Shown one piece after another: positions 26,779 to 48,833 of a DNA stretch of 64,000 nucleotides. This stretch comes from a virus. Lineage: Duplodnaviria; Heunggongvirae; Uroviricota; Caudoviricetes. The translations under genes were made by a program, and so were the position numbers. The notes below the pieces were generated by a model. That model worked only from the letters and a program-made list of their open reading frames with translations, was not told the DNA's origin and made no database searches. Position 1 is the first letter of the stretch. Every line of letters begins with the position of its first letter. Location: the IMG/VR virus record IMGVR_UViG_2861084961_000001. One strand, given 5' to 3'.

Positions 26779-26829
26779 CTCGTTATTATCACACACAAGA
26801 AAACAATTTGTTAAAAGGTTAAGTTAATT

Positions 26830-27654
26830 ATGCCCAACCACATTACAAACGAAATCCGAGTCATAGGTGGTACAAATAAACAACGCTTAGATTTCATACG
26901 TGCCATAACTAACAAAAAAGGTCTAATTGACTTTAATACCATTTGCAGACGTCCGAAAAGTATAGAAATGGAAGAAAACAATCATATCAGGCGCATGGCC
27001 TCTGCAATGGCGGGCGAAACAGTTTACGACTACATGTTCGGTGAATTAAAGACTCCAGAACAGGTCGAATTAGCTATGCGTGAATCTGGAATGACACGCA
27101 AGGAAATTCGCAAAATCAAAGAGCAGGCTCTTATGCGGCTTGAGAATTATCGTCGCTATGGCTATTACTCATGGTTTGACTGGTCGCGAGCTAATTGGGG
27201 AACAAAATGGAATGCCTACAACATCGAAATGCCCGTAAAACGTATCCCTACACGTATTAAGTACGGCCATAATTTCCGCCATACACACGTTCGAGCATAT
27301 GCAAAACGAATCTATAAAAAACGTCTTGCAAGACATGCCGCAACTGGTGGTGAGTTGGTGATTCGCTTTGAAACAGCCTGGTCTATGCCAAAACCAATTT
27401 ATCAAGCGATGGCTAGAAAGTTCCCGCACCTTGAATTTGTAATACGTTATGCAGACGAAGACTTCGGCAATAACTGCGGATTCATTTTACTTCGCAACGG
27501 CAAATGGGAATATGACTACATTGCACCGGCGAATAACGAACAATCGTCAGAAGAAAAAATCAAATGGCGCAAGTTCGCCTTTGAGTTATGTTGTCCTGGT
27601 ATTACTCCACAAGAATACGGTCTAAATGAAGAATACGAATACGCCGGATATTAA
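26830..27654 (+). CDS. Hypothetical protein (274 aa)
   Basis: ORF preceded by AGAAAACAATTTGTT motif; Trp-rich segment YSWFDWSRANWGTKWNAY. Confidence 0.45.
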   Translation: MPNHITNEIRVIGGTNKQRLDFIRAITNKKGLIDFNTICRRPKSIEMEENNHIRRMASAMAGETVYDYMFGELKTPEQVELAMRESGMTRKEIRKIKEQALMRLENYRRYGYYSWFDWSRANWGTKWNAYNIEMPVKRIPTRIKYGHNFRHTHVRAYAKRIYKKRLARHAATGGELVIRFETAWSMPKPIYQAMARKFPHLEFVIRYADEDFGNNCGFILLRNGKWEYDYIAPANNEQSSEEKIKWRKFAFELCCPGITPQEYGLNEEYEYAGY

Positions 27655-27779
27655 AAAATTGTCATTTAGCTTTACGCATGAAGCATAGAGGTTAATAAGA
27701 TGAAAAGAAAATTGAAGAACCAAAAACAACCCTTAATAAACATGGGGAAAAAATTCAAACACATCCAGCGTTCGGTCTT

Positions 27780-28439
27780 GTGAAAACAAGCCGTGTTAGC
27801 ACAACTGGCATTCGCCTATTTGATTCAGAACTGGAACATAGAGACTATATTGAAATAGGCGTTTACGAGGCAGAGCTGTCCTTAGACAATGAACGAACCC
27901 GGCCACAAAGAAGTAGCAATAGACGGCCTTTAGTTGAAATTAGACTTAGCCAGGCACAATGGGCTGCTATGGTTAGCAGTTTTGGTGTGGGCGAAGGTGT
28001 GCCATGCACTATTTCATATAAAACCATTGGCGACTCAATTAGAGTTCATGATATTGCCGAGCAAAAAAGTATTCGGCAAAAATTCAACGATCAAATAAAG
28101 GCAGCTACGAATAGTGAGATTGATCGACTTAATCAGCAAGTTTCAGAGCTAGGTGAGCTTGTGAAAAAAGGAAGAGCTGGAAAACGTGACCTTGAAGAAC
28201 TATATAGAAAACTTGCATCTGCTGTAGCTAACCTTCCTGAAAATCTGTGCTTTGCTACCGAATTAATGCAGGAGCAAATGGATGAAATTGTCTCATCTGG
28301 AAAGGCGGAGATTGAGGCGTATGTTGCAGGCACTGTTATGCGTAAAGGATTAGCAGCATTAGGTACAGAATCATGCATTAACGATGATCCTACAGTCTCT
28401 ATCACCAAAATGGAAAGCGGTAAAGAATTACTGCCATAA
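27780..28439 (+). CDS. Hypothetical coiled-coil protein (219 aa as given; may start upstream at ATG 27700 via a frame break)
   Basis: ORF; upstream in-frame continuation and ATG 27700 in -1 related frame near an A-run. Confidence 0.4.
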   Translation: MKTSRVSTTGIRLFDSELEHRDYIEIGVYEAELSLDNERTRPQRSSNRRPLVEIRLSQAQWAAMVSSFGVGEGVPCTISYKTIGDSIRVHDIAEQKSIRQKFNDQIKAATNSEIDRLNQQVSELGELVKKGRAGKRDLEELYRKLASAVANLPENLCFATELMQEQMDEIVSSGKAEIEAYVAGTVMRKGLAALGTESCINDDPTVSITKMESGKELLP

Positions 28440-28506
28440 ATGTATCTGAGGTACTGACAATGCTTTTAATTCAACCTGGGTTCGGTTTAAAGATAAAAAA
28501 GGACAT

Positions 28507-28848
28507 ATGTTTGGTGAGAGAGATTCCAAACGAAAAATTCTGTCTATTCGATTGCCATTTATCACCATTCATTGGTTAAACAGAGAGTCAACCGATTATT
28601 GGTATAAATGTGCAAGAGCAGCATTTAACGACCCTGACTGGTTTATAGAAAACCACCACGCGGTTCGTCAGGCAAAAAGAAAGGCAAATACGACATATAT
28701 GAAGGCATATCAGGATGCCTGGGAAGAACATCGTGGTCGATACCAAAAAAACATTGAAAAACTTGAATCTGAAAATATGGACCTAAGAAGAAAACTCGGT
28801 GAAGCACGGCGAGATATTGAAGCATATAAACGTCTTGTATCGGAGTGA
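28507..28848 (+). CDS. Hypothetical protein (113 aa)
   Basis: ORF in AT-rich block. Confidence 0.35.
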   Translation: MFGERDSKRKILSIRLPFITIHWLNRESTDYWYKCARAAFNDPDWFIENHHAVRQAKRKANTTYMKAYQDAWEEHRGRYQKNIEKLESENMDLRRKLGEARRDIEAYKRLVSE

Positions 28849-29010
28849 ATATGACTTTACATTGTTTTTCAAAGGGCATTGCTTTTCACTATACAGAAAC
28901 AGAAATAATAATGGGGCATTCTACATATGTAGTAAATGTGGCAGAACAAAATATCTTCCAGATGTCAAATTTGAAGGTCCTTAAATGTTTGCATTAAATG
29001 GGCAATACAG

Positions 29011-29427
29011 ATGATCGCAACAGACTTTTCTAAATTAAGTGATTTTGAAATTAACAGACGAGTATGTGAGGCTTTAGATATGGAGGAGTATTTCTTCATA
29101 CCTGATGACGAAGCAGATTTCGATTCGGAGATCCCCACTGATGAAAGAGGTCCTGTTTGGCAAACGTCAAAAAGGGATATTAATGGCTTCCGTGCTTCAA
29201 ACGGAAATTGCTTCAATCCTTGCAACAATCCGGCAGACGCAAAGCCTATTATCGTAGAGAATAGAATTGGCATCATTCCAGCGCCAGAAAATGGATTATG
29301 GAAGGCTGCGCATAGAAAGGTTGGTAACGATAATACTCCATACCATATGACTCAAAATGTAAATCCACTCCGCGCCGCTATGATTGTCTTTCTGATGATG
29401 AAAGAAAGTGAGAGTTGTACCGATTAA
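29011..29427 (+). CDS. Hypothetical protein (138 aa)
   Basis: ORF. Confidence 0.35.
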   Translation: MIATDFSKLSDFEINRRVCEALDMEEYFFIPDDEADFDSEIPTDERGPVWQTSKRDINGFRASNGNCFNPCNNPADAKPIIVENRIGIIPAPENGLWKAAHRKVGNDNTPYHMTQNVNPLRAAMIVFLMMKESESCTD

Positions 29428-29725
29428 TGAATATATACGATTTTTTAAAAAACCTAACACATGTGTCAGAAAAGGGTATAGACCGTCAGTCATCGATTGC
29501 TGGTCGCTATCAGCAAATAATCTCAACAATGTATTCAAAATGCATTGGGAGTTTCTTTGTGAAGCGCGCGGCGTTCTCGACATGACAGTCAGAGAAGCAA
29601 TTATCTGGATTCTTTGGTTTCCGGTAAGAACATTTATGACTCTGACGTACCCATTTACCTTCTGGATTTGGGGAACCGTCCTTTATTTCATATTAAAAGG
29701 AGAAGTAAAACATGGCAGCAATTAA
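29408..29725 (+). CDS. Hypothetical membrane protein (105 aa)
   Basis: Hydrophobic C-terminal half WILWFPVRTFMTLTYPFTFWIWGTVLYFIL. Confidence 0.35.
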   Translation: MRVVPINEYIRFFKKPNTCVRKGYRPSVIDCWSLSANNLNNVFKMHWEFLCEARGVLDMTVREAIIWILWFPVRTFMTLTYPFTFWIWGTVLYFILKGEVKHGSN

Positions 29726-30682: not shown

Positions 30683-31018
30683 ATGAAGGCCATCCCATTC
30701 GCGCTGTTGTTCCTTTCTTCGATCGTTGTGGCCGACACCACTGTTTATCAGTGTGAAATGTCTGTAGCCGACGTTAAGAATGGCGCTCTTACCGACGTCA
30801 TAAAAGCACCATATGGAGCGATGGTCGTAGACAGCGGCGACCAGTTCTATGTTGTGCGTGACGATCGAGTATTGTCATCCCCATATCTCACAAACCGTAA
30901 TGGCAAATTAACCGGCGTCGGAGAAGACCACTTCGTATACAACAAATACAAGGGCTTCTATGGCGTTCACGCTTCTCAGCAAAGCTACCTTTTCGATGAC
31001 TGCAAGGAGGTTGGATAA
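30683..31018 (+). CDS. Secreted/periplasmic hypothetical protein (111 aa)
   Basis: N-terminal signal peptide MKAIPFALLFLSSIVVADTT. Confidence 0.45.
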   Translation: MKAIPFALLFLSSIVVADTTVYQCEMSVADVKNGALTDVIKAPYGAMVVDSGDQFYVVRDDRVLSSPYLTNRNGKLTGVGEDHFVYNKYKGFYGVHASQQSYLFDDCKEVG

Positions 31019-31230
31019 TGGCATTAACACTAGCAGGTCTGGAAATCGAGAAAACAAGCGGATACTGGCGTGCTAAGGGTTTCAAGCAGCCTGGCGTTCT
31101 TGAGCGTCTGGAGCGTGAAGATGGGTATATCGTCCACCAGCGGCGTGAATGGCGCATGTACGATCCAGAAACAGGAAAACTGACTACAAAAGCCGGAACA
31201 CTTTGGGGTCTGTTAAAGAAAATACACTAA
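31018..31230 (+). CDS. Hypothetical protein (70 aa)
   Basis: ORF start-overlapping upstream stop; followed by hairpin actgcggctcgttccgcagt. Confidence 0.35.
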   Translation: MALTLAGLEIEKTSGYWRAKGFKQPGVLERLEREDGYIVHQRREWRMYDPETGKLTTKAGTLWGLLKKIH

Positions 31231-31278
31231 ATGCAAACTGACTGCGGCTCGTTCCGCAGTCATATTTCATAGTCGTCA

Positions 31279-31809
31279 CCGCTGACAGCATACACAATCA
31301 ACTGCCGCTGATAGCATATCGAGAGTCTATCTCACCGCTCACAGCATACTTTACTCGATTTTTACCGCTGACAGCATACTTAAGGCATTGCATGAATAAT
31401 GTGTACCGGTATGGGTATAACCAGAACAAAATTACCGCTGGCAGCATACGAAGGTCTGACATATGCCATTAATTACCGCTGATAGCATATCCAAACAAAA
31501 TTCCTCAATAAAACACCGCTGACAGCATACGTTCTATCAGGGAGCAGCAGGCAATAAATGCCTTTCACTACAAGTAATCAGCGCAATGGCAATAGAATGT
31601 TAGTGAGCGCAAACCTATATGGAATGCACTCTTCGAGGTTAGTAACCACTGGGGAGGTATAAAAGAGCATTGAGTGGTGATAGATGATTTACCGCTCACG
31701 GCATACGTTCATCTCACTATACCGCTGGTAGCATATCTTTAACCGTTCACAGCATACTTTTCAGAAAAATAGCCGCTGATAGCATACATTTCACCGCTGA
31801 CAGCATATC
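31279..31809. repeat. Iteron array: 12 copies of ~15-19 bp repeat CCGCTGACAGCATAC (variants) in two groups (7 + 5), downstream of repA
   Basis: Counted by eye at approx 31279, 31305, 31335, 31366, 31435, 31474, 31516, 31691, 31722, 31742, 31773, 31793. Confidence 0.85.
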
Positions 31810-32901
31810 AAAGCAGTTTGAGACTATTGGAAAGGATCTCAATCATCTTGATATTTTCAGGCGTCAAATTCTGTGAAAGTTCGGTTATCTTATTGATAAT
31901 GTTCTGTTTGGCATCAATTTCCCCGGCTTTCTCATCTGGTTTTTTGGGTTCGATGTCTTCAGGTTTTGGCGGTGCGACTTTGAGTTTTGGATTGCGGCTG
32001 TGAATCTGGATATAGATCGACCGCCCTCGCTTAATCTCGCTGTATTCGAGATAACCCAAATCTTGGAGAGCTTTTAAGCCGTTACGTATAGTCTGATTCT
32101 GCGAGCTGACATTCCTGCTACTCAAATTGAGTCGCGCACGCAATCGAGCAAGCGATACCGGCGCAGGCTTGGTTGGAAGACTTTCGATGAAGGTGTACAG
32201 AGCCTGTGCTGTTTCTTTGCGTGGTAGCTTATTGATAACCTTTAACTGTAAAAGAACCTTATGGTCAAAGCGATATAGTTCGGCCAGCTTCGGTTCTGCA
32301 TAGAACACCACCGTATCTTTCTGCTCGTTGTAGTCCACGCTATTGATGAGGTGCACCATCAGAAGCGAGATCTTGTTAGAGCCGTCGACATTCTTTTCTT
32401 CATACGTTCTCTGGAAAGACAGAGTGGTACGCATAATCTTCAAAAGACTGTTTGTAAGCCGGTCGCGGAGTGTTTTGCGGATCTGTGACGATGGATAGCC
32501 ACAAAACTTCGCAAATTTCGTGATGCTTAACTCGACACGACCGTTAGGTTCGCCGTATTCTGCCAGCGAACGCACAACGCCCACCCACGTTTTGAAATCA
32601 TGATCCATGTCGAGACGAGGACCGGTTATCTTGATATCGGAATAGCCTTCAGAACGGGCTACTTCGAGCTGAACAAGCTCCTTTGAAGCATCGATCTCAT
32701 TTGGCTTGTTACGCTTGCTGTATTTTGTCCCTTGAGCGTTGGCACGAACAACCCCAGCCGCATCAACGCAATTGGTTGGACTGTATTGTTGCTATTAGGG
32801 ACAAGTTCCCCTGTGTACAATTCAAGGGAACCTTCTTCAAAGTTGTCGAGATTATCTTCTACTTCTTTGTTATTTTTACCTTTTTTATTTTTTGTGGACA
32901 T
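31808..32901 (-). CDS. repA: Replication initiator RepA (iteron-binding), probable frame break near 32650-32760
   Basis: Minus-strand ORF 31808..32608 flanked on both sides by iterons; N-terminal Lys-rich segment MSTKNKKGKNNK starting at 32901 is in -1-related frame; larger ORF start at 33021 lies inside iterons and is rejected. Confidence 0.7.
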
Positions 32902-32922
32902 GTGGACACCTTTGTCATTCAA

Positions 32923-33023
32923 CCGCTGACAGCATACTTGATTTGCCGCTGGCAGCATACCAAAAACAGTTGGCAGCATACGGCGAACCGTTGACAGACT
33001 ATCAATTACCGCTGGCAGCATAC
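32923..33023. repeat. Upstream iteron group (4-5 copies) overlapping repA promoter
   Basis: aaccgctgacagcatac, tgccgctggcagcatac, agttggcagcatac, ccgttgacagactat, ccgctggcagcatac. Confidence 0.8.
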
Positions 33024-33059
33024 ATGAACATGGCTTCAGACCAGTCGTGGCGCGGCTTA

Positions 33060-33140
33060 CAGCGATCGGGGATCTTATTTGATCTATACAAGGATCTATC
33101 TATGGATCTCTTTATTAGGATCTATCCTGTGGATATGTAA
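33060..33140. promoter_or_regulatory. Origin-like AT-rich segment with six GATC sites in ~60 bp and a DnaA-box-like TGTGGATAT
   Basis: GATC at ~33064, 33071, 33081, 33093, 33105, 33119; tgtggatat at 33129-33137 (8/9 match to reverse DnaA box). Confidence 0.6.
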
Positions 33141-33221
33141 TAATTAAAACAGGCATTTACTACCTTCGGCGCACCTGGTGGGTTATCGTTGCCTCGGCTA
33201 ACAATCACAGAAAAATGACAT

Positions 33222-33866
33222 ATGGATCTAAAACGCACGCGCTGGGTTCGTCGTCTTGAAGACGGCTCCTACACTATCGAATCAAATTCCAACCTGAATA
33301 AGCAGAAGCTGCTTTGTGACATCTGCGGTATAGCGGCGAAGTGCCCGATCTACGAAACCAGAATTAAACTTGATAAGGCTGGTGTGAATTTTCATTTAAA
33401 CAGTTGCATCAGGTACGTTCCATTGCTCGCATTTCGTAAACCGATCATCGGATTGGATGCCCCCTACTTCAACACACTCCGTTCAGGTGTGACGTGGCGA
33501 GATCGTTTATCACCAGACAAGCTGATTTGCCTTGTATCCGCAGACACAGGGAAAATCATCCGTTTTGGGAAAGTAGACAAGGTTTACTCAGGTCCAGTAG
33601 ACGAAATGTTGCGGAAACACAGCCGGTTTAATCATCTCTGTATGGGGGGTGAGAAAATCGAAAAGGTGGAAGAAGTGATCCGTAAATCCTACGGACACTT
33701 CCTGACCAAAGATAGCCTGCTCACCGCAATCTACATCAGACATGTAAAACGTGAGTTCGACCTCGAATACCACAGTGAAGAAGAGCTTAACCTTGTTGAC
33801 CCACGTCCAAAAGCTGGCGTCATAAGCATAAACGCAGCGCGTAAAAAGCCCACTGACGCGCTGTAA
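33222..33866 (+). CDS. Hypothetical protein (214 aa)
   Basis: ORF. Confidence 0.45.
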   Translation: MDLKRTRWVRRLEDGSYTIESNSNLNKQKLLCDICGIAAKCPIYETRIKLDKAGVNFHLNSCIRYVPLLAFRKPIIGLDAPYFNTLRSGVTWRDRLSPDKLICLVSADTGKIIRFGKVDKVYSGPVDEMLRKHSRFNHLCMGGEKIEKVEEVIRKSYGHFLTKDSLLTAIYIRHVKREFDLEYHSEEELNLVDPRPKAGVISINAARKKPTDAL

Positions 33867-34120: not shown

Positions 34121-35436
34121 ATGACTTTGCCATACGGCGTCATTTCTGACTGCCACTACCACAAATGGGATGCGTTCTCCACGACGAACGCTGAGGGGCT
34201 TAACTCCAGACTTGAAATACAGTTGGAAGCAACGAAAGAAGCAGCCATCGCCATGAAGAAGGCCGGTTGTAAGTACATGTTGGTTGCCGGTGATACATTT
34301 CACGTCCGAGGAACTGTGTCCCCTTCTGTTTTGCATTACGTAACTGAAACGTACAAGTGGATTATCAACGAGCTTGATCTGACAGTAGTAATGCTGGCCG
34401 GTAATCACGATCTTGAAACCAACGATTCAGTATATAGCGCCAACGCAGCAGCATCGCTGAGTTCTATCGGCGTGGTAATCGTATGTGGCAAGCGCCCACA
34501 CTCAATAAAAATTGGTGATGTCACTGTCCACCTGATTAGCTGGCGTAACAATCATGCGGAGCTTATCAGCGATCTGAAAGCATTACGTAAGAGCGTAGAA
34601 GGTGATAATCATGACGTTGTTATCCATACATCCATTAACAAAGCCATTCCAACAATGCCTGACGTCGGTATCGATGCGCAGGAGTTAAAGGATATCGGCT
34701 TTCGTCTCGTGCTTAGTGGGCATTACCACAACCACAAAGAGGTCATTCCTGGAGTTATCAGTGTCGGTGCACTGACCATCAAAATTGGGGAGATGTTGGA
34801 TCTCTGGCTGGTTACATGATCGTAAACCCGGACGGCAGTTTCAGTCACTACGAAACCAGTGCGCCTAAATTCATTAACCTGGAAGATTATGTTGCCGATG
34901 ATCAAATTCGCGGCAACTACGTGCGTTTCCGCGCCGTAATGAGAACGATGAAGAAGGCATTAAGTACCAGAACATCCTCAAAACAATGGGTGCAAAGGTG
35001 TTGTGTGCAACTTCATCCGTAAGTCATCAATGATGGAAGGGACAGCAAGCACAACGGAAACCAGCAAAATCGATAGCCTGGGAGAGTCGGTATCTGCTTA
35101 TTGCAAGATTGTCCACGATACTGACGGCGGATTTGATCTGAGCAAGTTGGATATTTTGTGTCAGGAAATCCTCACCGAAGCGGAGAGTTCGGAGGCTGTG
35201 TGAGGCAAAGTCGTTATGGGAGCTTTCGAGACTTTGCCATCACGATGAAAAGACTTGAACGAGGCCAGACGGTGATGTTTCACAAGCCCTACCCGCCACA
35301 AGGAAATCCCGTAGCGTTTTATCTTGGAAGGTTAACCAGAAAAGGCGTATTGAGGCGCAGATCCTTCCCGGCGCATACGGAGTTCAGATTGAAAGAAGGT
35401 CAAAAGCTAACACACGGTATCAAAGGTGTTATATGA
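34121..35436 (+). CDS. SbcD/Mre11-like nuclease (calcineurin-like phosphoesterase), C-terminal part frame-broken
   Basis: Phosphoesterase motifs DCHYH, AGDTFH, GNHD, GHYH; conserved start context; C-terminal fragments 34816, 35003, 35158. Confidence 0.7.
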
Positions 35437-37346
35437 AGTTTTTAAAACTCCAGGTTGAGAATTTTATGGCTATCGCCAGCGCGGAGGTCGAGTTAGATCA
35501 GCGTGGTTTAGTGCTAATTCAGGGCATTAATAGTGATGATAGTTCCGCATCAAGTAATGGCTCTGGAAAGTCAACTCTAATGAATAGCCTGATGTGGTGT
35601 CTTTATGGCGAAACAGCTCATGGTGTGAAGGGTGACGATGTGTTGTCTACCGACCATGAAAAGAACTGTCGTGTTGCAGTAACCATCGAGGATGAAGGCA
35701 AGAGATATGCGATCATTCGTCACCGTAACACAAAGAGTTCAAAAATCGTCTTATCGTTCGTGGTGAAGATGGCGATATGACGAAAGGCAAAGATGCGCTG
35801 ACGCAGGAGTTCGTCGAGCGTCTGATCGGTGCATCTAAAGAGGTTTTCATGGCTTCCATCTATGCGAGCCAAGAAGCTATGCCAGATCTACCTGGAATGT
35901 CCGACAAAAACCTCAAAACCATCGTAGAAGAAGCCGCTGGCGTTGACAGACTGACACGCGCCTACGCTATTGCTCGTGAACGAGCTAACGCAGCTGCCGC
36001 ACGCATGGACGTGGTTAAAACCAAATTGGAGTCGACAATCTCGACCATTGAGGCAACACAGTCAGAAATTGAGTCCGCGAAAGCCTCCTCTGAATCATGG
36101 GAACAAGAGCGTTCTAAACGTTATGACGATGCCCTAGCTGGGCTGGCAAGTGCCGAAGTTGAGTTAACGGAAGTTGAACTTGAGATCCGCACTCTTCCCG
36201 AACAGATCCGTGATACCGAGAAGGCAATCGAAAGTGAGCGCAAAAAGTTAGCCTCAAAAGAAGAACATGATGCCAAGTTGCTCAAAGTGCGTGGTGCGAT
36301 AACTGATATTCGGGCAAGCATCAAAGCTACAGAAATAGTCAGGCTGATGCAATGAGCCGCGCGCGCAATTTTAAGACCAAAGCAGAAGAGGTTGGTACTA
36401 AAGTAGGATCACCATGCCCTACTTGTGGCAAAGCCTACTGCGAAGAAGATCTATCAACGGTGAAGGAGAATTTCATTGAACAAGCACGTCAGGAAATTGG
36501 TCAGGCGAAGACACTTGCAGAGGCAATGGCTAAACACAAAACGAATCTTGAGAAGGCGTTAAGCATTGAGTCTGCCCTTGTTAAAACGACACCTGATGTA
36601 ACGGCTATCATTGCCCGGATTGAAGAGCTTACTAAACAACTTTCATCTTTGCGTCATCGTGAGAAGGAGGTTGTTGCTATTGAGTCTCTTGTGACTCGTG
36701 CTCGTACTGAGGTCGATCGTATATCAAAAGAGATTAATCCGTTTATTGCTCTTATCGCCAGACACGAAGATAACCTGGTATCCAGTAAGTCTACCTTCAA
36801 GTCCTTAAAAGATGAGTTGAAGGCTATTCAGGAACAAACGTTGCTATTGGAAAAAGCTCGTCAGGTCTACTCTCCTGCCGGGGTGCGTTCTCATATTTTG
36901 ACGTCTGTTACGCCTTTCCTGAATACACGCACTGCCGAGTATCTCAATACGTTGTCTGACGGGAATATTACTGCTGAGTGGTCGACGATGGATGTCACTA
37001 AAAAGGTGAGTATCGCGACAAATTCAACATTAGTGTGCAGAAGAAAGGTTCAAGTAAGTCGTTCCAAACCCTCTCTGGTGGTGAGAAGCGGAAGGTTCGC
37101 ATTGCGTGTTCTTTGGCATTGCAGGATCTGGTTAGTAACCGGGCGAGTAAAAACATCGATTTGTTTATCGGCGACGAAATTGACGATGCACTCGATACAG
37201 CCGGTCTTGAACGCCTCATGGGTATTCTGGAGTCCAAAGCTCGCGAGCGAGGTACTGTGCTGATTATCTCCCATAAAGAGATGAAGTCATGGTTCCGGGA
37301 AACTATTACGCTGGAAGTTAAAGAGGGGCGCAGCTATGTCGTTTAA
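35433..37346 (+). CDS. SbcC/Rad50-like ATPase, split into 4 frames by -1 shifts
   Basis: Walker A GSGKST, coiled-coil, zinc-hook CPTCGK, ABC signature LSGGEKR, D-loop DLFIGDEIDDALD across ORFs 35433, 35777, 36352, 37035. Confidence 0.7.
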
Positions 37347-48227: not shown

Positions 48228-48833
48228 TTGAGAAAGAAGATGATTGCAGCCGAAAAAATCAAACAGCGAAAGCGCGACAACTCTCTTCGTGACCTCTGGA
48301 GAACACCTGATTGGCTGTTTTCTGCCATTCAACGTTATCTTGGGGTGACATTTGATGTTGACGTTGCCTGCAACAAGGACAATGCAAAGCTGCCTAATTT
48401 CATAGGCGTTGAGCGTGATGCTTTGAAATCTGAATGGGGACAGCCAGGTACAATTGCCTTCCTCAATCCACCCTACTCCAAAATCTCCCCCTGGATTGAT
48501 GCTGCTATACGTGAGCAGGCTCGCGGAGTTACAACAGTGATGCTAATTCCTCAATCCCTCGATACAAAGTGGTATGAGCGTGCAACAGAGTATGCGAATG
48601 AGACGATTATTCTGTCTGGTGGCCGCGTAGCGTTTGTCGAGCCTGACGTCAATTTGGGTCAGGTAGAAGTAAACATCAACCCCGGTGGCAGTATGCTCGT
48701 TGTTTTTCGAGGATTCTGTCAGGACGCTGGGCACTCTATAAGCAAGATCCCTTTGGACGTAATGAAAAGTCTGGGAGGGTATGATCCTGCGAATGTGGTC
48801 AGGAAAAAAAGACCATCAAAGAAGGCTGCTTAG
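48228..48833 (+). CDS. Phage-type DNA N6-adenine methyltransferase (orphan)
   Basis: Catalytic motif FLNPPYS; ~200 aa; no adjacent restriction endonuclease. Confidence 0.7.
   Translation: MRKKMIAAEKIKQRKRDNSLRDLWRTPDWLFSAIQRYLGVTFDVDVACNKDNAKLPNFIGVERDALKSEWGQPGTIAFLNPPYSKISPWIDAAIREQARGVTTVMLIPQSLDTKWYERATEYANETIILSGGRVAFVEPDVNLGQVEVNINPGGSMLVVFRGFCQDAGHSISKIPLDVMKSLGGYDPANVVRKKRPSKKAA

What the first reader, a model, noticed from the sequence alone, without database searches (positions are those of the whole stretch)
31279..33140. Replication origin with iterons on both sides of repA plus a GATC cluster and a DnaA-box-like site
Twelve iterons (consensus about CCGCTGACAGCATAC) lie downstream of repA in two groups, and four to five lie upstream overlapping the repA promoter. 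These are followed by six GATC sites within about 60 bp and a TGTGGATAT DnaA-box-like sequence. This mirrors the organisation recalled for P1-type oriR/incC/incA: upstream iterons for initiation and autoregulation, a downstream iteron array for copy-number control, Dam methylation and DnaA dependence.
Basis: partly seen in the sequence, partly recalled or inferred. Interest (0 to 1): 0.6.

Follow-up and report, generated by a model that had tools for sequence, protein, structure and literature searches.

The report
P1/RepFIB-type plasmid replication origin
This is the plasmid-maintenance replication module of an SSU5-like phage-plasmid: an initiator gene (repA) flanked by its own binding repeats, built like the textbook phage P1 and IncFIB origins, so it is real but ordinary.

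Summary
There are 17 same-orientation iterons (core GTATGCTGTCAGCGGT on the repA strand). Seven plus five lie downstream of repA and five lie upstream at 21-23 bp phasing. Next come a GC-rich spacer, the window's only GATC cluster (6 in 59 bp; 0 of 300 shuffles reach 6) and a DnaA-box-like 9-mer.

The P1 analogy is supported by homology, not only resemblance. Intact RepA from near-identical plasmids is 46% identical to P1 RepA and about 50% to IncFIB RepA. The 117-nt DnaA-box/GATC/spacer segment is 83% identical to the annotated P1 oriR core. The order of parts matches P1 feature for feature, including a control array that begins at the repA stop codon.

The replicon occurs in 131 PLSDB plasmids and 120 of 5,426 complete E. 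coli genomes, always on plasmids. It corresponds to MOB-suite rep_cluster_488 and, by linkage, PlasmidFinder IncFIB(H89-PhagePlasmid).

Differences from P1:
- a different iteron sequence;
- 12 all-direct control iterons in two blocks;
- no adjacent par operon;
- longer RepA termini.

In this window repA carries a 1-bp frameshift and one DnaA box a 1-bp deletion. Both are most likely long-read assembly errors. Verdict: a new member of a known kind, of low interest.

The parts
31239..31262 (.). GC-rich hairpin (bidirectional terminator-like) between the convergent small ORF 31018-31230 and the first iteron. It marks the outer boundary of the replicon.
   Evidence: 9-pair stem with 6 GC pairs, T-run on the + strand; inverted repeat I5.
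31279..31530 (-). Distal control block of 7 iterons (15-mers starting at 31279, 31305, 31335, 31365, 31435, 31476, 31516; spacings 26, 30, 30, 70, 41, 40). Inferred incA-like function: RepA titration and handcuffing.
   Evidence: The copy number of this block varies among close relatives: 4 in phage PhiR41_1 and 4 in Klebsiella pJN2-26.
31531..31691 (.). Iteron-free gap of 161 bp between the two downstream blocks.
   Evidence: Mostly deleted or diverged in the Klebsiella relative. No Rfam match. No function assigned.
31692..31808 (-). Proximal control block of 5 iterons (31692, 31722, 31743, 31773, 31794; spacings 30, 21, 30, 21). The last one abuts or overlaps the repA stop codon (31808-31810), as incA iteron 9 does in P1.
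   Evidence: P1 annotation (iteron 9 starts at the last base of repA).
31808..32901 (-). repA, a P1/RepFIB-family iteron-binding initiator (364 aa when intact). Start ATG at 32901-32899, preceded by Shine-Dalgarno AAAGGTG at 32913-32907. In this window it is split by a 1-bp deletion at about 32727-32729 (GGGG to GGG on the repA strand) into a 97-residue N-terminal part plus a frameshifted tail, and an ORF at 31808-32608.
   Evidence: Pfam Rep3_N WH1 domain, 37.5 bits against a cutoff of 22.4.
32547..32569 (+). Inverted iteron-like sequence inside repA. A 19-nt stretch is 18/19 complementary to origin iteron 3 plus its flank (32971-32989). Significance unknown.
   Evidence: I2, I6, I9, I10; 32555-32569, minus strand, 3 mismatches. 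Present in PhiR41_1. Weakened by synonymous changes in the Klebsiella relative.
32893..32909 (-). Two overlapping weak DnaA-box-like 9-mers (GTGTCCACA and ATGTCCACA, 2 mismatches each) across the repA start codon. Possible counterpart of the right-hand DnaA boxes of P1. Speculative.
   Evidence: Read. The Klebsiella relative has GTATCCACA here (1 mismatch). P1 has CTATCCACA between its iterons and repA. PMC4980987 describes two DnaA-box arrays in P1.
32923..33023 (-). Origin iterons (incC-like): five copies at 32923, 32946, 32967, 32988 (degenerate) and 33009, with 23/21/21/21-bp phasing. Inferred RepA binding site for initiation and for autorepression of repA.
   Evidence: Five upstream iterons at about 21 bp are found in P1, JK004, RCS47, SSU5 and pJN2-26. 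Against Klebsiella they are 89% conserved, compared with 69% for the spacers.
33024..33063 (-). GC-rich spacer (57.5% GC) containing GCCGCGCCACGACTGG, homologous to the spacer of P1 oriR.
33064..33127 (-). AT-rich (35% GC) GATC cluster: six GATC, five of them in (A)GATC(C/A) heptamers positionally homologous to the Dam sites of P1. Inferred DNA-unwinding element and Dam/SeqA target.
   Evidence: P1 Dam sites 1-5 are annotated.
33128..33143 (-). DnaA boxes. ATATCCACA (33136-33128) is intact. The adjacent TTATT[C]ACA (33143-33136) lacks one base in this window; relatives have TTATTCACA, a perfect match to TTWTNCACA.
   Evidence: P1 tandem DnaA boxes are annotated.
48228..48833 (+). Phage-type DNA N6-adenine methyltransferase (Dam family) carried by the same element. 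A possible trans-acting source of origin GATC methylation (inferred; specificity not tested).
   Evidence: PF05869, 131.9 bits. The orthologue in the relative is annotated 'phage N-6-adenine-methyltransferase'.

Best explanation
The region is the plasmid-maintenance replicon of an SSU5-supergroup phage-plasmid. It is an iteron-controlled theta-type replicon homologous to the P1 R replicon and to RepFIB of IncF plasmids.

Inferred mechanism, by homology:
1. RepA monomers bind the five phased origin iterons (32923-33023).
2. Host DnaA binds the box or boxes at 33128-33143.
3. Together they open the adjacent AT-rich GATC-heptamer segment (33064-33127) so that the host helicase can be loaded.
4. 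The GATC sites make firing dependent on full Dam methylation. Hemimethylated sites allow SeqA sequestration after each round.
5. RepA bound to the origin iterons, which fill nearly all the space upstream of repA, represses its own promoter.
6. The 12 downstream iterons (31279-31808) titrate RepA and pair with origin iterons ('handcuffing') to hold copy number low and to determine incompatibility.

Shown here: the repeats, their statistics and phasing, the GATC cluster, protein and DNA homology to P1 and RepFIB, conservation across relatives, and exclusive plasmid location.

Inferred: every biochemical step.
For: - Iteron and GATC statistics.
- RepA homology: 46% to P1 RepA over almost its full length, about 50% to thousands of IncFIB RepA, 48% to SSU5 RepA, and a Pfam Rep3_N WH1 domain.
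- The curated P1 record gives the same part list in the same order and spacing.
- The origin core is 83% identical to P1 oriR, z = 12. It aligns across seven replicons, with the DnaA box, AGATCC heptamers and spacer conserved. RepFIB of pJIE186-2 shows the same DnaA box plus five GATC.
- Iteron sequence co-varies with RepA type while the architecture stays constant: P1, JK004, RCS47, SSU5, pJN2-26.
- Iterons are conserved and spacers are not, compared with Klebsiella: 89% against 69% upstream, 71% against 42% downstream.
- The replicon is the only typed replicon (rep_cluster_488) of 100-114 kb non-mobilizable circular plasmids. It is in 120 of 5,426 complete E. coli genomes, at 185 places, none chromosomal.
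- Experimental support from relatives. For FIB replicons the downstream iteron block alone displaces the plasmid in trans, while the upstream block does not (PMC11983097). A single DnaA box suffices for the P1 origin (Abeles 1990, cited in PMC4980987).
Against: - In this window repA is frameshifted and one DnaA box has lost a base. If these are real, this copy could not replicate from this origin without RepA supplied in trans.
- No sigma-70 consensus promoter was found on the repA strand. The best candidate, TTGATA-19-TATGCT at 33005-32975, has a long spacer and is not conserved in Klebsiella.
- The surviving DnaA box is not significant by itself.
- No experiment on this lineage's origin was found in the searchable literature.
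Confidence: 0.9

Rival explanations
1. The replicon is a dead relic in this molecule. The repA frameshift and the DnaA-box deletion are real mutations, so the element is maintained by another replicon or by RepA supplied in trans.
For: The frameshift at about 32727-32729 truncates RepA after about 97 residues, removing most of the protein. A Shigella sonnei 66.5-kb relative also has a differently placed frameshift in repA.
Against: - The window shows a one-sided excess of single-base deletions: 45 against 24 insertions over 43 kb, with 32 deletions in homopolymers of 3 or more.
- In the 7.5 kb around repA, 11 deletions break three neighbouring genes, while substitution divergence is only about 1.4%. 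This is the signature of uncorrected long-read assembly.
- All five deletions in the 30.3-34.4 kb stretch compared (four of them in 31.2-33.2 kb) are window-specific against two independent relatives.
- 120 plasmids encode an intact RepA at 99% identity or more.
Confidence: 0.07
2. The downstream repeat arrays are not copy-control sites. They would instead be a centromere-like or partition site, or a second origin used in another phase of the phage-plasmid life cycle.
For: No par operon adjoins the array, unlike in P1. The array is split into two blocks whose distal copy number varies between 4 and 7.
Against: - The downstream repeats have the same 16-nt core as the origin iterons, so the same protein, RepA, should bind them.
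- The homologous arrays in P1 are annotated as incA.
- In FIB replicons the corresponding array acts as a replication inhibitor in trans (PMC11983097).
- No DnaA box, GATC cluster or AT-rich element accompanies the downstream array.
Confidence: 0.03
3. The repeats flanking repA are recombination (attL/attR) sites, as annotated in the GenBank record of Klebsiella phage pJN2-26.
For: That record labels 20-nt direct repeats on each side of the RepB gene as attR and attL.
Against: Those two sequences are simply 2 of 13 iteron copies in that locus and correspond to 2 of 17 here. The copies are phased at 21-41 bp and sit in the positions of the RepA-binding iterons of P1. The elements are circular plasmids and never chromosomal.
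Confidence: 0.01

Closest known systems
Bacteriophage P1 plasmid (R) replicon: oriR (DnaA boxes, five GATC heptamers, incC iterons), repA, incA
   Same: - RepA is homologous: 46% identity over 278 aa.
- The origin core is 83% identical at the DNA level.
- Both have five origin iterons at about 21-bp phasing.
- GATC heptamers and the GC-rich spacer sit in the same positions.
- The control iteron array begins at the repA stop codon.
- Both are carried by a temperate phage that lives as a plasmid.
   Different: - Iteron sequence: GTATGCTGTCAGCGGT here, GATGTGTGCTGGAGGGAAA in P1. Different RepA specificity and incompatibility are therefore expected.
- Here there are 12 control iterons, all direct, in two blocks. 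P1 has 9, with 3 direct and 6 inverted.
- Six GATC here, five in P1.
- No parAB operon next to the array.
- RepA is 364 aa here and 286 aa in P1, with a Lys-rich N-terminal extension and a C-terminal extension of about 55 aa.
- The phage backbone is SSU5-like (siphovirus-type), not P1.
RepFIB replicon of IncF plasmids (P307, F, pO157; PlasmidFinder IncFIB types)
   Same: - It has the closest RepA by sequence: about 50% identity over about 285 aa in thousands of plasmids.
- repA is flanked by an upstream origin iteron block and a downstream control iteron block (PMC11983097).
- A DnaA box plus five GATC lie upstream.
- SSU5-supergroup phage-plasmids are typed as IncFIB (PMC7969092; IncFIB(H89-PhagePlasmid), PMC12838234).
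   Different: - The iteron sequence differs.
- Most downstream RepFIB iterons are inverted relative to the upstream ones.
- RepFIB repA uses a CTG start (PMC11983097). Here the start is ATG with a good Shine-Dalgarno sequence.
- The GC-rich spacer motif shared with P1 is not evident in RepFIB.
Replicons of other SSU5-supergroup phage-plasmids: SSU5/pHCM2/pLF82 type, and the Klebsiella IncpKPHS1 type
   Same: - Same genomic neighbourhood: the conserved 214-aa ORF upstream, and small ORFs annotated in SSU5 and pJN2-26 as 'putative Cre-associated protein' downstream.
- Klebsiella pJN2-26/IncpKPHS1 RepA is 85% identical and uses the same iteron core.
- SSU5 RepA is 48% identical and has the same architecture.
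   Different: - SSU5 uses a different iteron (AACCACTGTAGAGAGT), has mixed orientations and carries an extra upstream cluster.
- The Klebsiella type has 8 downstream iterons and two intact tandem DnaA boxes.
- The published IncpKPHS1 description lists only four downstream iterons and no known RepA domain (PMC6735626).

Membership tests
P1-type R replicon (oriR/incC-repA-incA) | Initiator homologous to P1 RepA | tested here: met
   BLASTP gives 46% identity over 278 aa, E 4e-86, covering P1 RepA residues 20-284 of 286. tblastn result.
P1-type R replicon (oriR/incC-repA-incA) | Five directly repeated iterons at about 21-bp (two helical turns) phasing immediately upstream of repA | tested here: met
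   Copies at 32923, 32946, 32967, 32988 and 33009, spacings 23/21/21/21. In P1 the spacings are 21/21/21/22. One copy (32988) is degenerate.
P1-type R replicon (oriR/incC-repA-incA) | DnaA box(es) at the outer end of the origin | tested here: met
   ATATCCACA at 33136-33128 aligns with the tandem DnaA boxes of P1. A second box, TTATTCACA, is intact in relatives but has lost one base here. The motif alone is at chance frequency.
P1-type R replicon (oriR/incC-repA-incA) | Cluster of GATC-containing heptamers in an AT-rich segment between the DnaA boxes and the iterons, followed by a GC-rich spacer | tested here: met
   Six GATC in 59 bp; 0 of 300 shuffles reach 6. GC is 35% in the cluster and 57.5% in the spacer. 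Positional homology to P1 Dam sites 1-5.
P1-type R replicon (oriR/incC-repA-incA) | Control (incA) iteron array beginning at the repA stop codon | tested here: met
   The iteron at 31794-31808 abuts the stop codon at 31808-31810, and there are 12 copies in all. In P1, iteron 9 starts at the last base of repA.
P1-type R replicon (oriR/incC-repA-incA) | P1 iteron sequence, meaning the same RepA specificity and IncY incompatibility | tested here: not met
   The consensus here is GTATGCTGTCAGCGGT; in P1 it is GATGTGTGCTGGAGGGAAA. A separate specificity is therefore expected.
P1-type R replicon (oriR/incC-repA-incA) | Mixed orientation of incA iterons (3 direct, 6 inverted) and a parABS operon directly downstream | tested here: not met
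   All 12 downstream iterons are in the origin orientation. No ParA or ParB is annotated within about 10 kb in the near-identical relative. The flanking ORFs have no Pfam hit.
P1-type R replicon (oriR/incC-repA-incA) | Autonomous replication dependent on RepA, DnaA, Dam methylation and DnaK/DnaJ/GrpE, with a copy-number rise on deletion of the control array | not testable with these tools
   Only indirect support is available. The replicon is found solely on plasmids (185 places, none chromosomal) in 120 complete E. coli genomes, and it is the only typed replicon of those plasmids.
RepFIB / IncFIB replicons | RepA of the RepFIB family with iteron blocks on both sides of repA | tested here: met
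   About 50% identity to RepB-family/RepFIB RepA of IncFIB-typed plasmids. Flanking iterons; RepFIB layout (PMC11983097).
RepFIB / IncFIB replicons | Assignment to a catalogued IncFIB replicon type, IncFIB(H89-PhagePlasmid) | tested here: inconclusive
   PlasmidFinder could not be run. pAVS0575-B, reported as highly similar to IncFIB(H89-PhagePlasmid) plasmids and pECOH89 (PMC12838234), is rep_cluster_488 and matches window 31200-32901 at 97.8%. pECOH89 RepA is reported as 48% similar to the pLF82 type (PMC3999498), which fits the 47.9% to SSU5 RepA here.
Rep_3 / winged-helix (WH1-WH2) iteron initiator superfamily (RepE, pi, pPS10 RepA) | Pfam PF01051 Rep3_N WH1 domain above the gathering score | tested here: met
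   37.5-38.3 bits against a cutoff of 22.4. There is no PDB sequence match at E of 1 or below and no NCBIfam hit.

The most novel reading that the evidence does not exclude
This pECOH89/pKPHS1 lineage may have re-engineered the control half of the P1/RepFIB replicon. All 12 control iterons point the same way as the origin iterons, whereas P1, JK004, RCS47, SSU5 and RepFIB all have mixed or inverted arrays. They are also split into a fixed proximal block and a recombination-prone distal block (4-7 copies), with an extra inverted iteron-like site inside repA. This could mean a different pairing geometry (parallel cis-looping rather than antiparallel pairing) and a copy number that is tuned by iteron gain and loss. 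It might be coupled to the element's own Dam methylase and its switch between plasmid and lytic replication.
Probability: 0.12. Interest if true: 0.35.

Novelty: new member of a known kind. Interest (0 to 1): 0.15.

Why it matters
This replicon keeps a widespread group of E. coli, Shigella and E. albertii phage-plasmids in the cell. It is found in about 2% of complete E. coli genomes, and some of these elements carry CTX-M-15. A correct map of its origin, control iterons and initiator start has several practical uses:
- replicon typing;
- incompatibility-based curing designs (the downstream iteron block is the effective part in FIB replicons);
- fixing database annotation errors, namely a RepB start placed inside the iterons and iterons labelled as att sites.

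Biologically it adds no new principle. It shows that the host-factor half of the P1 origin is conserved at 83% across very different phage backbones, while RepA and its iterons have diverged together.

Tried and rejected
- Rfam scan of 30900-33400 at E of 1 or below: no RNA family. No evidence for an antisense-RNA control element in the 161-bp gap.
- Consensus promoter scan: no hit on the repA strand. A position-weight scan gave only weak candidates that are not conserved, so the repA promoter is left unassigned.
- NCBIfam and PDB sequence search: no hits for RepA.
- The DnaA box as a stand-alone statistical signal was rejected: 129 sites observed, 142 expected.
- The three iteron-like hits elsewhere in the window (10321, 14621, 24343; 3 mismatches each) are at chance level and were ignored.
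- The bioRxiv paper on repA-linked copy-number heteroresistance concerns an unrelated 49-kb phage-plasmid family.
- pECOH89 (HG530657) and p09EL50 (CP003298) are not in the local collections. The link to IncFIB(H89-PhagePlasmid) was therefore made indirectly through pAVS0575-B.
- Programmed frameshifting in repA was considered and rejected. There is no slippery site, the deletion is window-specific, and it is one of many homopolymer deletions.
- Several loci fetched in parallel (L002, L005-L007, L010) were not available to scripts, so they were analysed with the built-in tools instead.
- Structure prediction and the large protein-database searches were not run, because homology to P1 and RepFIB was already unambiguous.
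Full report
**Observation**

The repeats are real and far above chance. The 15-mer CCGCTGACAGCATAC with up to 3 mismatches occurs 20 times in the window against 1.46 expected. Sixteen + strand hits lie within 31279-33023. A degenerate copy at 32988, found by the repeat finder, brings the count to 17, all in one orientation.

They fall into three groups:
- seven at 31279-31530;
- five at 31692-31808;
- five at 32923-33023.

An information profile of the 17 copies gives a 16-nt core, RTATGCTGYCAGCGGT on the repA strand. Spacings are 21, 23, 26, 30, 40-41 or 70 bp, mostly near whole numbers of helical turns.

GATC density in the window as a whole is at chance level (271 observed, 265 expected). 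However, the six sites at 33064-33122 form the only cluster of 3 or more per 62 bp, and none of 300 dinucleotide shuffles produced six.

The DnaA-like 9-mer is at 33128-33136. It has one mismatch from TTATCCACA and is not significant on its own (129 such sites, 142 expected).

**The gene between the repeats**

On the minus strand, an ORF starting at ATG 32901 (Shine-Dalgarno AAAGGTG five bases upstream) runs to a stop codon at 31808-31810. In this window it is broken by a frameshift. Near-identical plasmids carry an intact 364-aa protein. That protein has these properties:
- a Pfam Rep3_N (WH1) domain;
- 46% identity to P1 RepA across almost all of P1 RepA;
- about 50% identity to the RepA of thousands of IncFIB plasmids;
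- 48% identity to SSU5 RepA and 85% to the Klebsiella pJN2-26/IncpKPHS1 type.

**Architecture compared with the curated P1 record**

The P1 GenBank record (AF234172) annotates the following order:
1. tandem DnaA boxes;
2. five Dam sites within 55 bp;
3. a gap of about 39 bp;
4. five RepA-binding iterons (incC) at 21-22 bp that enclose PrepA;
5. repA;
6. nine incA iterons, the first starting at the last base of repA.

Read on the repA strand, the window shows the same order:
1. DnaA box(es) at 33143-33128;
2. six GATC within 59 bp;
3. a 40-bp GC-rich spacer;
4. five iterons at 21-23 bp;
5. repA;
6. twelve iterons, the first abutting the stop codon.

This is homology rather than convergence. The 117 nt from the DnaA box to the spacer are 83% identical to the corresponding P1 segment (91 of 109 aligned pairs, z = 12 against shuffles).

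A seven-replicon alignment covers the window, pECAZ155_2, Klebsiella pJN2-26, SSU5, Cronobacter JK004, RCS47 and P1. It keeps the DnaA box, GGATAGATCC, the AGATCC heptamers, AGATCCC and most of the GC-rich spacer. The RepFIB replicon of pJIE186-2 has the same DnaA box followed by five GATC.

**Comparative support for function**

Each RepA type has its own iteron sequence but the same layout. This is the pattern expected of a protein and its binding sites evolving together.

Compared with the Klebsiella relative (repA DNA 76% identical), conservation is as follows:
- origin iteron positions 89%, against 69% for the spacers between them;
- downstream iteron positions 71%, against 42% for the spacers.

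The number of origin iterons is five in every member examined. The control array is plastic: 12 here, 9 in phage PhiR41_1 (an 86-bp deletion between two perfect iterons), 8 in pJN2-26 and 9 in P1.

The 2-kb region is found at 95-99% identity in 131 PLSDB plasmids. These are mostly non-mobilizable circles of about 100-114 kb, typed only as rep_cluster_488. It is also found in 120 of 5,426 complete E. coli genomes, at 185 places, all on plasmids and none on a chromosome. This is indirect evidence that the module sustains autonomous replication.

**The frameshift and sequence quality**

Relative to two independent relatives, the 30.3-34.4 kb stretch compared has five private single-base deletions, four of them within 31.2-33.2 kb. 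One lies in repA (GGGG to GGG at about 32727) and one in the first DnaA box (TTATTCACA to TTATTACA).

Over 43 kb there are 45 one-base deletions against 24 insertions, and 32 of the deletions are in homopolymers of three or more. The neighbouring metallophosphoesterase and AAA-ATPase genes are each split several times. This is the signature of an uncorrected long-read assembly. I put about 0.9 on the frameshift being an artefact. If it is real, this copy would need RepA supplied in trans.

**Mechanism (inferred from P1 and RepFIB; nothing biochemical was tested here)**

1. RepA monomers occupy the five phased origin iterons.
2. DnaA binds the box or boxes at the far end. One box is sufficient in P1 (Abeles et al. 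1990, cited in PMC4980987).
3. The AT-rich heptamer segment between them opens for helicase loading.
4. Its GATC sites tie initiation to full Dam methylation and allow SeqA sequestration of hemimethylated daughters. This rests on my knowledge of Abeles and Austin 1987 and Brendler et al. 1995; the sites themselves are annotated.
5. The origin iterons occupy most of the roughly 120 bp between the spacer and the start codon. Any promoter in that interval must overlap them, which gives autorepression.
6. The downstream iterons titrate RepA and handcuff the origin. For FIB replicons the downstream block alone displaces a resident plasmid in trans, whereas the upstream block does not (PMC11983097).

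The element also encodes a phage-type Dam-family methyltransferase at 48228-48833. This enzyme could supply origin methylation, but its specificity was not tested.

**Differences from the archetypes**

- The iteron sequence is distinct from both P1 and RepFIB, so a separate incompatibility specificity is expected.
- All twelve control iterons share the orientation of the origin iterons. P1, JK004, RCS47, SSU5 and RepFIB all have inverted copies.
- The control iterons form two blocks separated by a poorly conserved 161-bp gap.
- There is no par operon next to the array.
- RepA has N- and C-terminal extensions relative to P1.
- A 19-nt inverted copy of origin iteron 3 plus its flank lies inside repA (18/19 match). 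It is unexplained, and synonymous changes weaken it in Klebsiella.
- No convincing promoter could be assigned.

**Status in the literature**

- SSU5-supergroup phage-plasmids are already typed as IncFIB (Pfeifer et al. 2021, PMC7969092).
- PlasmidFinder has IncFIB(H89-PhagePlasmid), based on pECOH89 (PMC12838234; PMC3999498).
- pAVS0575-B, reported as highly similar to such plasmids, matches the window's repA and control array at 97.8% and is rep_cluster_488.
- The Klebsiella sister group was described as IncpKPHS1, with only four downstream iterons and no recognised RepA domain (PMC6735626).
- I found no paper that dissects this lineage's origin.

**Verdict**

The feature is a catalogued but experimentally uncharacterised member of a textbook family. 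The novelty rating is therefore 'new member of a known kind', and interest is low.

Noticed in passing
window 12172-64000 (examples: 30514, 31358, 31496, 32727, 33138, 34776, 34940, 34994, 35727, 36333, 37000): There is a systematic excess of single-base deletions in homopolymer runs relative to close relatives (45 deletions against 24 insertions over 43 kb). These split repA, the metallophosphoesterase gene (34121-35203) and the AAA ATPase gene (35433-36355). The sequence looks like an unpolished long-read assembly.
   Followed up: yes
window 32902-33021 (minus strand); L001 4611-5825; L004 1381-2598: RefSeq and GenBank annotate the RepB-family CDS as 404-405 aa, starting at the ATG inside origin iteron 1. 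The 21-bp-phased iterons happen to read through in frame (repeated 'MLP' motifs). The true start is most likely the ATG at 32901: it has a good Shine-Dalgarno sequence, only 3n indels occur downstream of it compared with Klebsiella, and the P1 RepA alignment begins at residue 32.
   Followed up: partly
L004 (Klebsiella phage pJN2-26, MZ779062) 1378-1397 and 2648-2667: The GenBank record labels two iteron copies flanking repA as phage attachment sites attR and attL. They are 2 of 13 RepA iterons in that locus, so this is almost certainly a mis-annotation.
   Followed up: yes
window 32547-32565 versus 32971-32989: A 19-nt sequence inside the repA coding region is 18/19 complementary to origin iteron 3 plus its adjacent spacer. 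This is an inverted iteron-like site about 400 bp from the origin. It is present in PhiR41_1 but weakened by synonymous changes in the Klebsiella relative. It may be chance, gene conversion or a regulatory site.
   Followed up: partly
window 48228-48833 (+): A phage-type DNA N6-adenine methyltransferase (Pfam PF05869 Dam, 132 bits) is encoded about 15 kb from the origin. It could methylate the origin GATC cluster independently of host Dam.
   Followed up: partly
window 26823-29693: A 2.9-kb segment is absent from the otherwise collinear relative pECAZ155_2. It encodes a DUF1281_C/Api92-like protein (26830-27654), two coiled-coil-like ORFs without real family hits, and a P22 NinX-like protein (29011-29427). 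It looks like an accessory cargo module.
   Followed up: partly
L002 (Escherichia phage PhiR41_1) 3080-3524 versus window 31279-31808: The distal control block has 4 iterons in this phage instead of 7. The difference is an 86-bp deletion whose end points are the two perfect iterons at 31279 and 31365. Iteron number in the control array therefore changes by recombination between repeats within a lineage that is 98% identical or more.
   Followed up: yes
L005 (Salmonella phage SSU5) 892-999: SSU5 has a second cluster of about five iterons at 21-bp phasing roughly 380 bp further upstream of its origin iterons. This feature is not present in the window's replicon.
   Followed up: no
window 33222-33866 (+): A conserved 214-aa ORF is transcribed divergently from the origin and has no Pfam hit. 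It keeps this position next to the replicon in E. coli, Klebsiella and SSU5 relatives. Its function is unknown.
   Followed up: no
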